Positions 37,369 through 37,493 of a stretch of 43,116 bases of DNA are shown here, piece after piece. The notes beneath the pieces were generated by a model, which saw only the letters and a list, made by a program, of their open reading frames with translations, searched no databases and had not been told where the DNA came from. A program made the position numbers and the translations under genes. The DNA is from a virus, in IMG/VR virus record IMGVR_UViG_3300010413_000124; one strand, given 5' to 3'. Numbering within the stretch: position 1 is the first letter of the stretch; every line of letters starts with the position of its first letter.

Positions 37369-37493
37369 GCGCGGGTAGCTCAGACGATAGAGCATCGGTA
37401 AAGCAGTGTGACAGGCCATCACAGCGTCGAAAAGCATGCGTCGATGCAGCTGCGAACAAGCCGAGTGTCGGAGGTTTGACTCCTCCCCCGCGC
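37369..37493 (+). tRNA. tRNA-like gene with a ~53-nt insertion in the anticodon arm (possible intron-containing or degenerate tRNA)
   Basis: Perfect 7-bp acceptor GCGCGGG/CCCGCGC, D arm GCTC-AGACGATA-GAGC, anticodon-stem halves TCGGT (37395-99) and GCCGA (37460-64) separated by 60 nt instead of 7, T arm GGAGG-TTTGACT-CCTCC, discriminator A. Confidence 0.45.

What the first reader, a model, noticed from the sequence alone, without database searches (positions are those of the whole stretch)
37369..37493. tRNA-like gene carrying a ~53-nt insertion inside the anticodon arm, fused in frame to a downstream ORF
All arms of a canonical tRNA are present. The 7-bp acceptor stem is fully complementary. 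The D arm is GCTC/GAGC. The T arm is GGAGG-TTTGACT-CCTCC with discriminator A. The two halves of the anticodon stem (TCGGT and GCCGA) are separated by 60 nt instead of a 7-nt loop. This is too short for a group I intron; it is more like an archaeal-type (BHB) intron, a decayed tRNA, or a tRNA-like att/recombination site. The T loop (TTTGACT) lacks the conserved C56. A Trp-rich ORF is open straight through the element, with TTG inside the T arm as the only downstream start.
Basis: seen in the sequence. Interest (0 to 1): 0.6.

Follow-up and report, generated by a model that had tools for sequence, protein, structure and literature searches.

The report
Phage tRNA-like gene, expanded anticodon arm
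A phage carries a real, evolutionarily maintained tRNA-shaped RNA gene whose anticodon loop is replaced by a folded 60-base module and which lies inside the reading frame of the next gene. It belongs to a previously undescribed family of valine-like tRNA mimics found next to a small cupin gene in many phages.

Summary
Window 37369-37494 (+) scores 45.3 bits on Rfam tRNA, with a ~60-nt insertion in the anticodon loop. Default ARAGORN and Rfam's gathering-mode filters both miss it.

It is not decayed. Two orthologues (L001, L002) keep the cloverleaf and the insert's three-way junction through 10 compensatory pair changes, including the tertiary 19-56 pair.

It is not a BHB or group I intron, and no excision rebuilds a canonical anticodon arm. 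Relatives of the downstream gene (a small cupin) carry orthologous elements. These keep A35-C36 and A73, the valine identity set. They lack U33 and have loops of 6-12 nt or structured inserts of 31-84 nt that leave nt 34-38 single-stranded.

A cultured phage, Paraglaciecola Antarctic GD virus 1, has an unannotated copy with the same plan.

Best reading: a non-decoding, valine-like tRNA mimic. Valine charging is inferred, not shown.

In this lineage the cupin ORF has no start codon of its own. It stays open through the element from ATG 37356, with frame-restoring indels in L002.

Function is unknown, and splicing by unknown machinery is not excluded.

The parts
37369..37494 (+). Whole tRNA-like structure (TLS), 126 nt, from acceptor 5' strand to discriminator A
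   Evidence: Rfam RF00005 scores 45.3 bits over model positions 1-71. The custom model R1 scores 75.2 bits. The MFE fold is a cloverleaf. Covariation is shown.
37369..37375 (+). Acceptor stem 5' strand, GCGCGGG, which pairs with 37487-37493
   Evidence: Seven Watson-Crick pairs. L001 has G1-U72. L002 has an A6-U67 change by eye, although the MAFFT register scores it as a mismatch.
37378..37393 (+). D arm, GCTC-AGACGATA-GAGC, with A19 at 37387
   Evidence: Invariant stem. A19 covaries with T-loop position 56 (A-U in the window and L001, G-C in L002, helix 3).
37395..37399 (+). Anticodon stem 5' strand, TCGGT, which pairs with 37460-37464 (GCCGA)
   Evidence: Three of 5 pairs change on both sides among the window, L001 and L002 (helix 4).
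37400..37459 (+). 60-nt structured expansion replacing the 5' part of the anticodon loop. In order: spacer AAA 37400-02; closing helix P1 GCAG 37403-06 / CTGC 37450-53; hairpin 1 37407-23 (loop CAGGCCA 37412-18); hairpin 2 37424-47 (7 bp, loop AAAGCATGCG); AG 37448-49; single-stranded tail GAACAA 37454-59.
   Evidence: MFE fold. Hairpin 1 has 2 pairs and hairpin 2 has 4 pairs with compensatory changes. A YAGGCCA 7-nt loop hairpin also occurs in L002 and L154, and ACAGGCCAT occurs in L186.
37455..37457 (+). Anticodon-like triplet AAC (equivalents of positions 34-36), followed by AA (37-38)
   Evidence: The 'AC' lies exactly 4-3 nt before the 3' strand of the anticodon stem in all 8 founding elements and in 17 of 18 elements directly upstream of the cupin gene. 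ARAGORN in intron mode reads Val(aac).
37465..37486 (+). Variable loop GTGTC and T arm GGAGG-TTTGACT-CCTCC (U56 at 37477)
37487..37494 (+). Acceptor 3' strand CCCGCGC and discriminator A73; the genome continues CCG, so no CCA is encoded
   Evidence: A73 is present in 22 of 26 gene-adjacent elements.
37356..37949 (+). ORF of 197 codons that reads through the TLS. ATG 37356 overlaps the stop (37364-66) of the upstream methyltransferase gene. TTG 37476 in the T loop is the only other in-frame start.
   Evidence: The protein frame has 0 stops in the TLS; the other two frames have 2 and 3.
37494..37529 (+). Linker codons TDHECGPANPAF between the TLS 3' end and the conserved cupin N-terminus. Translated in this frame.
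   Evidence: The amino acids are identical in the window, L001 and L002, with 9 third-position synonymous differences. Variable columns by codon position after the TLS are 7/5/22, against 14/13/17 inside it.
37530..37946 (+). Conserved small cupin, called 'cysteine dioxygenase' in PHROGs and phage annotations
   Evidence: 503 homologues, typically 140-143 aa. PHROG 4786, E 3.9e-31. AlphaFold2 mean pLDDT 91.5. Foldseek against PDB gives small metal cupins such as TM1459, E 4e-6.
36704..37366 (+). Upstream SAM-dependent methyltransferase gene. Context only; its stop overlaps the ATG of the TLS-spanning ORF.
   Evidence: Pfam Methyltransf_24, E 4.6e-6, with a weak FtsJ match. PHROG 21658. A methyltransferase gene also overlaps the cupin gene in Caulobacter phage CcrColossus and Brevundimonas phage Bajun.

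Best explanation
The element is a functional gene for a tRNA-shaped RNA. It belongs to a phage-specific family of valine-like tRNA mimics that travels with a small cupin gene.

Shown:
- The RNA keeps everything needed to fold into the tRNA L-shape: acceptor stem, D arm, T arm and the 19-56 elbow pair.
- It keeps A35, C36 and A73, which are identity nucleotides for valyl-tRNA synthetase.
- It has lost the decoding geometry. There is no U33. A helix (P1) carrying two hairpins emerges where nucleotide 33 would make the U-turn. Nucleotides 34-38 (AACAA) remain as a single-stranded tail stacked on the 3' strand of the anticodon stem.
- The expansion has no features of any known intron class. It is lineage-specific and itself conserved.

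Inferred:
- The RNA is processed like a tRNA (RNase P, 3' trimming, CCA addition).
- It is recognised, and possibly charged, by ValRS.
- It cannot read codons, so it acts as a mimic, decoy or amino-acid carrier rather than as a translator.

In this lineage the cupin gene has lost its own start codon. It is read from an ATG 13 nt upstream, straight through the unspliced element. On any one transcript, therefore, maturation of the RNA and translation of the cupin would exclude each other. This last step is inferred.
For: tRNA shape under selection:
- Rfam tRNA 45.3 bits.
- 10 pairs with both-side changes among 3 orthologues, 0 of 500 shuffles reaching that value, and slid controls at 0-1. The changes include the two insert hairpins and the 19-56 pair.
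- Substitutions inside the element show no codon-position bias (14/13/17). Just downstream the counts are 7/5/22.

A family, not a one-off:
- Orthologous elements with related acceptor stems abut the homologous gene in L001-3, L152, L154, L156, L158, L184, L171 and others.
- 17 of 18 elements directly upstream of the gene carry A35-C36. Across all 26 flanking hits, 22 have A73 and only 5 have a 7-nt loop. Among 111 other tRNA hits in the same loci, 75 have a 7-nt loop.

Non-decoding:
- Loops of 6, 7, 8, 9, 10, 11 and 12 nt or inserts of 31-84 nt, mostly without U33.
- No excision of the window's insert gives 5 bp + U33 + R37. The same test succeeds for 33 of 89 other insert-bearing phage tRNA genes.

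Common plan of the expansions:
- A closing helix after 0-3 nt and a 5-8-nt 3' tail ending NAC-NN.
- The same three-way junction occurs in the cultured Paraglaciecola Antarctic GD virus 1, with a promoter-like site and an encoded CCA.

Valine identity:
- The valine set is A73, A35 and C36. Plant-virus valine TLSs tolerate large inserted stem-loops (review PMC9976931).

The ORF reads the unspliced RNA:
- 0 stops in the protein frame in all 8 loci that lack their own start, against 1-6 in each other frame.
- L002 has a -1 indel in the insert and a +1 indel in the T stem that together restore the frame.
- 8 of 10 elements followed by a gene with its own ATG do have stops in that frame.
Against: - No expression, end-mapping or aminoacylation data exist. 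Valine charging rests only on conserved identity nucleotides.
- The minor valine determinants G20 and G45 are not kept in the window.
- Only three sequences carry this exact insert, so the covariation statistics come from a small, related set.
- Conserved insert structure would also be expected of an intron that needs a fold to be recognised.
- Three Val-like relatives (L186, L198, L214:6229) could be spliced to canonical Val loops.
- If cut between positions 33 and 34, the window would give AAAACAA. That is the same form as the uninterrupted loops of L168, L197 and L173.
- The loci without their own start codon came mostly from a protein database that requires a called ORF. This biases them towards open frames.
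- Being inside an ORF is awkward for an RNA that must be cut out.
Confidence: 0.5

Rival explanations
1. It is an intron-containing tRNA-Val(AAC)-like gene. The roughly 53-nt insert is removed by an unknown phage or host activity, for example an endonuclease plus an RNA ligase. This would match the 'enigmatic' short introns seen in many phage tRNA genes. The product would be a 73-nt RNA with the loop AAAACAA.
For: - ARAGORN in intron mode calls Val(aac) with a 53-nt intron.
- Short inserts are common in phage tRNA genes. At least 89 of 125 pattern matches in IMG/VR have an in-register acceptor stem. 33 of 89 insert-bearing phage tRNA genes can be 'spliced' in silico to canonical arms.
- Lak megaphage tRNA introns have been reported (10.1101/356790).
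- Uninterrupted orthologues have 7-nt loops of the same form: L168 AAAACCT, L197 AAAACAC, L173 AGAACAT.
- L186, L198 and L214 Val-like genes can rebuild canonical Val loops.
- An RNA ligase and a phosphatase are encoded next to the element in Paraglaciecola phage GD1.
Against: - The product would still lack U33 (A33) and would not be a canonical decoder.
- Orthologues without inserts have loops of 6-12 nt, so a 7-nt loop is not what selection maintains.
- The reading frame of the cupin ORF is intact only if the insert stays in the RNA. The L002 indels show this.
- The insert lacks the hairpin + ACAGCAA signature and the 28/29-29/30 position of the introns that do splice cleanly in silico.
- No RNA ligase or splicing endonuclease turned up among the 26 window ORFs screened against Pfam.
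Confidence: 0.2
2. It is mainly a cis-acting part of the cupin mRNA. The tRNA shape recruits RNase P and 3'-processing enzymes, or ribosomes, to set the 5' end, stability or translation of the downstream message. In most relatives, cutting at the tRNA 3' end would leave an almost leaderless mRNA. The released RNA would have no role of its own.
For: - In relatives with their own start codon, the ATG lies only 2-15 nt after the element (L166, L183, L194, L201, L154, L198, L184). That leaves no room for a normal ribosome-binding site.
- The tight linkage of element and gene is conserved across very divergent phages. 24 of 64 non-redundant loci have a flanking tRNA-model hit, 18 of them on the upstream side.
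Against: - The element lies just downstream of the gene in L176, L186, L190 and L206.
- It lies 183 nt upstream with its own promoter-like site in Paraglaciecola phage GD1.
- Conservation of A35-C36 and A73 and of the insert loops is not needed for a processing signal.
- In the window, cutting at the tRNA ends would leave the cupin ORF without any start codon.
Confidence: 0.15
3. The region is simply protein-coding. It would be an N-terminal extension of the cupin, and the tRNA shape would be an inherited relic of a tRNA gene captured by the ORF and no longer used as RNA.
For: - The ORF is open through it in 8 of 8 loci lacking their own start.
- Frame-restoring indels occur in L002.
- L158 has AGGAGG-N7-ATG 10 nt upstream, in frame.
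Against: - Substitutions in the element show no third-position bias (14/13/17). The encoded peptide is not conserved: L002 reads a different frame for 28 codons. Meanwhile, base pairs are maintained by 10 double changes.
- AlphaFold2 gives pLDDT below 50 for the nine residues immediately after the element (query residues 1-9); the codons inside the element were not modelled.
Confidence: 0.07
4. It is a decaying tRNA pseudogene, or the phage half of a tRNA-targeted integration site (attP).
For: - It has a non-canonical loop and T-loop.
- It is not called by standard tRNA finders.
- An integrase gene lies 1 kb upstream of the orthologue in L152.
Against: - Compensatory evolution occurs in all variable helices and in the tertiary pair.
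- The full cloverleaf is conserved across distant phages.
- att sites need only sequence identity with a host tRNA 3' part, not covariation.
- No integrase was seen among the screened window ORFs.
Confidence: 0.03

Closest known systems
Canonical bacterial or phage tRNA-Val (Rfam RF00005)
   Same: Same 7/4/5/5-bp cloverleaf, 19-56 elbow pair, A35-C36 and discriminator A73. Scores above the Rfam gathering threshold. Genuine tRNA-Val(UAC) genes with CTTACAA loops sit in the same phage tRNA arrays.
   Different: No 7-nt anticodon loop and no U33. A 60-nt three-way junction sits at the U-turn position. A34 is unusual for bacterial Val. CCA is not encoded. The element lies inside an ORF.
Valine-accepting tRNA-like structures of plant RNA viruses (TYMV TLS-Val)
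   Same: A viral RNA that mimics tRNA-Val. It keeps the anticodon A35/C36 identity nucleotides, is not used for decoding, and tolerates large inserted stem-loops (PMC9976931).
   Different: The TYMV TLS sits at the 3' end of an RNA genome, builds its acceptor arm with a pseudoknot and keeps a normal 7-nt anticodon loop. The element here is a DNA-phage gene with a normal acceptor stem and an abnormal anticodon arm. Valylation has not been tested.
'Enigmatic' short introns in tRNA genes of Lak megaphages and other large phages (Devoto et al. 2019; bioRxiv 10.1101/356790, PMC6784885)
   Same: Phage tRNA genes that are longer than normal because of tens of nucleotides inserted in the anticodon arm. 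Bacterial-mode tRNA finders miss them. The mechanism is unknown.
   Different: Many of those, including the family I saw in IMG/VR, rebuild a canonical anticodon arm when the insert is removed, usually from inside the 5' strand of the stem. The window's element cannot, and its uninterrupted orthologues are already non-canonical.
Archaeal/eukaryal tRNA introns with a bulge-helix-bulge motif
   Same: Similar insert size (tens of nucleotides) and a location in the anticodon arm.
   Different: No 3-nt bulge / 4-bp helix / 3-nt bulge. The length of the closing helix varies (3-8 bp) among relatives. Not at position 37/38. The context is bacterial-type phage.
Group I introns in bacterial and phage tRNA genes
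   Same: They interrupt the anticodon loop of tRNA genes in bacteria.
   Different: Those are at least ~200 nt with a P3-P9 catalytic core. This insert is 60 nt, and no Intron_gpI or any ribozyme family matched even at E <= 10.
Phage T4 stable RNAs species 1 and 2 (rnaC/rnaD) and the bacterial tRNA-like Y RNA YrlA. Recalled from memory; not checked here.
   Same: Small stable RNAs in or near phage tRNA clusters, or bound by Ro, that imitate parts of tRNA and have no decoding role.
   Different: Their sequences and architectures were not compared here. In YrlA the RNA ends lie in the Ro-binding stem, not in the acceptor stem. No Rfam family other than tRNA matched the window's element.

Membership tests
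tRNA (Rfam RF00005), structural membership | Covariance-model score above the gathering threshold, with all four arms present | tested here: met
   45.3 bits against a threshold of 29, model positions 1-71 of 71. Found only with relaxed filters.
tRNA, functional decoder | 7-nt anticodon loop with U33 and purine 37, either as encoded or after removing an insert | tested here: not met
   No combination of flanking nucleotides gives 5 bp + U33 + R37. The best possible loop is AAAACAA, with A33.
tRNA, functional decoder | L-shape tertiary contacts (G19-C56 or an equivalent pair) | tested here: met
   A19-U56 in the window and L001, G19-C56 in L002 (helix 3). In 35 non-redundant family members, a proxy for positions 19 and 56 gives G/C 10 times and A/U 8 times.
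Valine-specific tRNA or TLS | Identity nucleotides A35, C36 and A73 (PMC9976931) | tested here: met
   AAC lies at 37455-57, followed by two nucleotides and then the stem; A is at 37494. The set is conserved in 17 of 18 upstream-adjacent orthologues.
Valine-specific tRNA or TLS | Aminoacylation by ValRS | not testable with these tools
   Needs an in-vitro charging assay, or acid-gel northern blots of RNA from infected cells.
Archaeal-type BHB tRNA intron | Two 3-nt bulges on opposite strands separated by a 4-bp helix, which define the splice sites | tested here: not met
   The structure is a 3x6 internal loop, then P1, then a three-way junction. P1 is 4 bp here, 3 bp in L002, 5 bp in L210, 6 bp in L152, 7 bp in GD1 and 8 bp in L206. 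BHB-like cuts would give a 12-nt loop.
Group I intron in tRNA | Catalytic core (P3-P9) of about 200 nt or more, with a match to Rfam Intron_gpI | tested here: not met
   The insert is 60 nt. No such match appeared at E <= 10 in 37250-37650.
Phage tRNA short-intron class (clean in-silico splicing; insert inside the 5' strand of the anticodon stem, hairpin + ACAGCAA motif) | Removing the insert rebuilds a canonical anticodon arm; the insert lies at 28/29-29/30; the motif ACAGCAA lies 2-3 nt after a hairpin | tested here: not met
   The window fails the splice test, while 33 of 89 others pass it. The insert follows position 31-33. The sequence CAGCG overlaps the hairpin stem and covaries with it.
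tRNA-gene att site (attP) | Identity to the 3' part of a host tRNA gene, an adjacent integrase, and no need for the 5' half | tested here: inconclusive
   The full cloverleaf is under structural selection. No integrase was found among the screened window ORFs. The host genome is unknown, so identity to a host tRNA could not be tested.
Cupin superfamily (the downstream protein) | Double-stranded beta-helix fold with a conserved His cluster | tested here: met
   AlphaFold2 mean pLDDT 91.5, all-beta. Foldseek hits small metal cupins at E ~1e-5 to 1e-6. PHROG 4786. Invariant HHW...HDH motif. The 'cysteine dioxygenase' name is only an annotation label.

The most novel reading that the evidence does not exclude
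The element is a valine-charged but non-decoding tRNA mimic. The phage would use it outside normal translation, in one of three ways:
- as an amino-acid donor or cofactor for the linked cupin and methyltransferase;
- as a decoy for a tRNA-directed host defence;
- as a ValRS sponge.

In this lineage the same transcript is either cut to release the mimic or translated through it to make the cupin. That would be a built-in either/or switch between an RNA product and a protein product of one gene. An even bolder variant is that the tRNA shape itself places the ribosome on a start-codon-less ORF.
Probability: 0.12. Interest if true: 0.85.

Novelty: new variant of a known kind. Interest (0 to 1): 0.62.

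Why it matters
Phage tRNA genes are usually read as codon-usage helpers or as replacements for tRNAs cut by host defences. This case shows a conserved class of phage tRNA look-alikes that keep the synthetase identity marks and the L-shape but have lost the decoding loop. Standard annotation does not see them. One sits unannotated in a cultured phage genome.

If they are charged with valine, they would be the first DNA-phage counterpart of the plant-virus valine TLSs, and a new example of tRNA mimicry in virus-host conflict.

The overlap with an ORF is also a rare natural case where RNA-structure selection and an open-frame constraint act on the same 126 nt. The evidence is clean: compensatory pairs, no codon bias, and frame-restoring indels.

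In practice, the work gives a covariance model, a diagnostic signature (NAC-NN tail, A73, no U33, next to the cupin gene) and a culturable system for testing.

Tried and rejected
1. BHB intron. Rejected on geometry and on the variable length of the closing helix.
2. Group I intron or any known ribozyme. Nothing in Rfam at E <= 10 except tRNA and a spurious lncRNA hit.
3. Exhaustive in-silico excision to rebuild a canonical arm. Impossible for the window and its closest relatives.
4. The idea that the 'GSS' motif at the N-terminus of a cupin subgroup is a relic of the tRNA D-arm (GGTAGCTCA). Rejected, because the motif is encoded by varied codons.
5. The out-of-frame ATG at 37505 as the start, followed by a +1 shift. 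Not pursued. D and H upstream of it already change only synonymously in the protein frame, and there is no supporting signal.
6. SD-like GGAGG in the T stem serving the TTG at 37476. The spacing is 1 nt, and L002 lacks the TTG.
7. DNA similarity of 36500-38500 to deposited phages. No match.
8. Two specific insert patterns in IMG/VR. No match.
9. The single metagenome scan used a pattern that mostly matched ordinary tRNAs, because AGGCCA also occurs at the variable loop / T stem junction. It produced no new members.
10. A looser Val-like-with-insert pattern in IMG/VR gave only 3 clean extra members among the matches parsed from the first 120 returned loci.
11. The genome-contig collection gave only 6 MAG contigs and no host clue.
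12. Promoter and terminator scans around the element were at background level.
13. Literature searches found the Lak-phage intron report, but no description of this family or of a mechanism.
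Full report
**1. The observation**

- Acceptor stem: 7 bp, GCGCGGG/CCCGCGC.
- D arm: GCTC-AGACGATA-GAGC.
- Anticodon stem: 5 bp, TCGGT/GCCGA, with its halves 60 nt apart.
- Variable loop: GTGTC.
- T arm: GGAGG-TTTGACT-CCTCC.
- Discriminator: A.

Standard tools miss it. ARAGORN finds only tRNA-Leu (891-974) and tRNA-Met (35822-35897). The Rfam gathering-mode scan finds the same two. With permissive filters, the Rfam tRNA model matches 37369-37494 end to end at 45.3 bits (threshold 29) and skips 62 nt in the anticodon loop. 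No other RNA family is credible there. ARAGORN with introns allowed and a lowered threshold calls tRNA-Val(aac) with a 53-nt intron. The minimum-energy fold is the cloverleaf with an extended anticodon arm that ends in a three-way junction, at -49.9 kcal/mol and z = -2.66. The element has 59.5% G+C in a 48.3% window.

**2. It is under selection as an RNA**

The downstream ORF has 503 detectable homologues. Only P0001, P0002 and P0003 share the long N-terminal extension. Their contigs (L001, L002, L003) carry the same element at the same place.

For the window, L001 and L002 (insert 60/60/59 nt), the proposed structure gives these counts.
- 96.5% of cells pair.
- 10 pairs changed on both sides; none of 500 shuffles reached that value.
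- The same structure slid by 1-3 columns gives 0-1.
- The double changes are 3 in the anticodon stem, 2 in insert hairpin 1, 4 in insert hairpin 2 and 1 in the tertiary 19-56 pair.

A19-U56 in the window and L001 corresponds to G19-C56 in L002. The apparent breaks in P1 for L002 are an alignment-register artefact: ACG/CGT pairs if the gap is moved by one column.

**3. It belongs to a family tied to the downstream gene**

The downstream protein is normally 140-143 aa. It is a small cupin: PHROG 4786 'cysteine dioxygenase', AlphaFold2 pLDDT 91.5, and Foldseek hits to TM1459-like metal cupins.

Contigs of more distant homologues carry orthologous tRNA-like elements directly upstream. They have related acceptor stems (NNGCGGG/CCCGCNN, often C1-G72) and the same D and T arms. 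Their anticodon arms differ widely.

| Locus | Anticodon arm |
|---|---|
| L156 | 6-nt loop TAACGT |
| L184 | 6-nt loop ATACAT |
| L168 | 7-nt loop AAAACCT |
| L171 | 9-nt loop |
| L158 | 10-nt loop |
| L152 | 62-nt insert |
| L154 | 81-nt insert |
| L003 | a different 57-nt insert |

I built a covariance model (R1) from eight trimmed elements and searched 73 IMG/VR loci that encode the cupin. The gene lies in same-strand tRNA arrays of large phages. Forty-two of the 139 model hits are not called by default ARAGORN.

The table compares the 26 hits that directly flank the gene in 64 non-redundant loci with the 111 other hits.

| Feature | Flanking hits (n=26) | Other hits (n=111) |
|---|---|---|
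| 'AC' 4-3 nt before the 3' strand of the anticodon stem (positions 35-36) | 20 | 26 |
| A73 | 22 | 76 |
| 7-nt loop | 5 | 75 |

Seventeen of the 18 upstream-adjacent hits have the AC. Genuine tRNA-Val(UAC) genes with CTTACAA loops occur elsewhere in the same arrays.

**4. Architecture of the expansions**

Constrained folds of the insert-bearing members show a common plan.
- After 0-3 unpaired nucleotides, a closing helix P1 begins.
- P1 carries one to three hairpins.
- On the 3' side, a 5-8-nt single-stranded tail ending NAC-NN leads into the anticodon stem.

Tail sequences are GAACAA (window), GGACAA (L001), GAACAT (L186), AGACAA (L230), AACAA (L206) and ACAACAT (L154). The helix therefore emerges where U33 would make the U-turn, and nucleotides 34-38 are left free.

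A hairpin with the 7-nt loop YAGGCCA recurs in the window, L001, L002 and L154, and as ACAGGCCAT in L186. The insert of L186 looks like the window's insert without hairpin 2.

The same plan exists in a cultured phage, Paraglaciecola Antarctic GD virus 1. It has an unannotated 124-nt element (L232:1674-1797; record about 113999-114122; 48.4 bits). Its layout is CCTTT | GAA | 7-bp P1 | hairpin with 7-nt loop | small hairpin | P1' | GACAA | GAAGG. It also has an encoded CCA and a TTGACA...TAATGT promoter-like site. It lies 183 nt upstream of the annotated 'cysteine dioxygenase' gene and just after an RNA ligase gene and a phosphatase gene.

**5. Intron or not?**

- BHB motif: not present (sections 1 and 4).
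- Group I intron or known ribozyme: none found.

I ran an exhaustive in-silico excision test. It combines k nucleotides from the 5' side with 12-k from the 3' side, and requires 5 pairs, U33 and R37.
- It fails for the window, L001-3, L152, L154, L230, L170, L206 and L210.
- It succeeds for 33 of 89 other insert-bearing phage tRNA genes. In most of those the 5' exon gives only 2-3 nt of the stem, which puts the insert at 28/29-29/30.

Those other genes correspond to the 'enigmatic introns' reported for Lak megaphages (10.1101/356790).

Two facts keep the intron reading alive.
- Cutting the window between positions 33 and 34 would give AAAACAA. That is the form of the uninterrupted loops of L168, L197 and L173.
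- The Val-like genes L186, L198 and L214:6229 could be spliced to canonical Val loops.

Against it: even the spliced product would lack U33, loop length is plainly unconstrained in the family (6-12 nt), and the ORF evidence below requires the insert to remain in the translated RNA.

**6. The ORF**

The 12 codons after the element (TDHECGPANPAF, 37494-37529) are identical in the window, L001 and L002 despite 9 third-position differences. Variable columns by codon position are 7/5/22 downstream of the element and 14/13/17 inside it. So the frame is translated from at least 37494, yet the peptide encoded by the element is not itself constrained.

Between the upstream stop (37344) and the conserved protein, the only in-frame starts are ATG 37356 and TTG 37476. 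ATG 37356 overlaps the stop of the methyltransferase gene. L002 lacks the T-loop TTG, and both of its starts lie upstream of the element. L002 also has a -1 indel in the insert and a +1 indel in the T stem that together restore the frame.

In all 8 loci without their own start (window, L001-3, L152, L156, L158, L173), the protein frame has 0 stops in the element, while each other frame has 1-6. Eight of 10 elements followed by a gene with its own ATG do have stops in that frame. L158 has AGGAGG-N7-ATG 10 nt upstream of the element, in frame.

Most family members (tblastn sample) have their own ATG 2-15 nt after the element. The fused state is therefore a minority, derived condition. There is a caveat: most fused loci were found through a protein database, which favours open frames.

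**7. Interpretation**

Shown:
- a structurally conserved tRNA-shaped RNA gene;
- a conserved, lineage-specific structured expansion at the U-turn position;
- retention of A35, C36 and A73;
- loss of canonical loop geometry;
- linkage to a cupin gene;
- an ORF kept open through the element.

Established knowledge: A73, A35 and C36 are valine identity determinants. Viral valine TLSs tolerate inserted stem-loops and are not used for decoding (PMC9976931).

Inferred:
- tRNA-like processing;
- recognition or charging by ValRS;
- inability to decode;
- mutual exclusion between RNA maturation and cupin translation in this lineage.

The biological role is unknown. Candidates are a decoy, a ValRS ligand, an amino-acid carrier for the linked enzymes, or an mRNA processing element.

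**8. Novelty**

Short inserts in phage tRNA genes have been noted before (Devoto et al. 2019). I found no description of this Val-like, non-decoding family, of its cupin linkage, or of the ORF overlap. I class it as a new variant of a known kind (tRNA-like RNAs and interrupted phage tRNA genes).

Noticed in passing
IMG/VR loci L004-L123 (e.g. L006, L019, L020, L033, L037, L087, L098, L103, L117, L122); also L214:5334-5457: Many phage tRNA genes carry 45-70-nt inserts. In one large group, removing the insert rebuilds a perfect anticodon arm (Asn GTT, Ile GAT, Arg CCT/TCT, Thr TGT, Cys GCA, Ser GCT and others). There the insert sits inside the 5' strand of the anticodon stem (after nt 28 or 29) and contains a hairpin followed 2-3 nt later by ACAGCAA. 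This looks like a distinct, widespread short-intron class with an unknown splicing mechanism.
   Followed up: partly
L012-L015, L030, L034, L036, L048, L053, L065, L066, L075, L084, L086, L097, L114, L115: 'tRNA inside a tRNA': the insert holds a T-arm-like GAGAGTTCGATTCTCTC followed by a D-arm-like TTAGCTTAATGGGAGAGCA, that is, a circularly permuted tRNA-like unit nested in the anticodon arm. [quoted passage not shown]
   Followed up: no
L232 (Paraglaciecola Antarctic GD virus 1, MW805361.1, about 113999-114122): A 124-nt tRNA-like gene with a three-way-junction anticodon arm is unannotated in the GenBank record of a cultured phage. It lies between gp193 and the 'cysteine dioxygenase' gp194. 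RNA ligase (gp191) and phosphatase (gp192) genes sit immediately upstream.
   Followed up: partly
L173:563-760: The cupin ORF lacks an in-frame ATG. An ATG (ATGAAGGG-TCTTCA) sits one base out of frame where relatives begin MKGSS, as if one base were missing. This could be an assembly error, a real frameshift, or another 'read-through-the-tRNA' case, since the frame is open through the tRNA-Val(aac)-like gene.
   Followed up: no
tRNA arrays in L159-L231: ARAGORN labels seven hits in these arrays 'tRNA-Pyl(cta)', that is, amber-suppressor-type tRNAs. Several hits have 8-9-nt anticodon loops, reported with 4-nt 'anticodons'. This hints at stop-codon recoding and other non-standard decoding in these phages.
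   Followed up: no
L154:7302-7648 and L154:4987-5880: The phage contig with an 81-nt-insert orthologue also encodes a tmRNA (tag AAPVKMAA) about 0.8 kb downstream of the cupin gene. Just upstream of the element it has a vWA protein with a weak match to the Ro60 vWA domain.
   Followed up: no
window 3998-6631 (+): An 877-aa protein has a Major Vault Protein shoulder domain (PF11978, E 1.6e-17) and a weak vault repeat. This is unusual in a phage-like window.
   Followed up: no
window 34432-35814 (+) and 41406-42737 (+): A MoxR/AAA-type ATPase (PHROG 1297) and a DUF2201 metallopeptidase + VWA-like protein flank the tRNA-Met / methyltransferase / tRNA-like / cupin / DUF4326 block. The same DUF4326 gene lies two genes downstream of the cupin gene in L001.
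   Followed up: no
L233 (Caulobacter phage CcrColossus) 883-1419; L234 (Brevundimonas phage Bajun) 926-1198: In these cultured jumbo phages a methyltransferase gene overlaps the cupin gene, as in the window. The unannotated gap upstream holds several weak, irregular tRNA-like hits (15-27 bits), some with inserts in the T arm.
   Followed up: no
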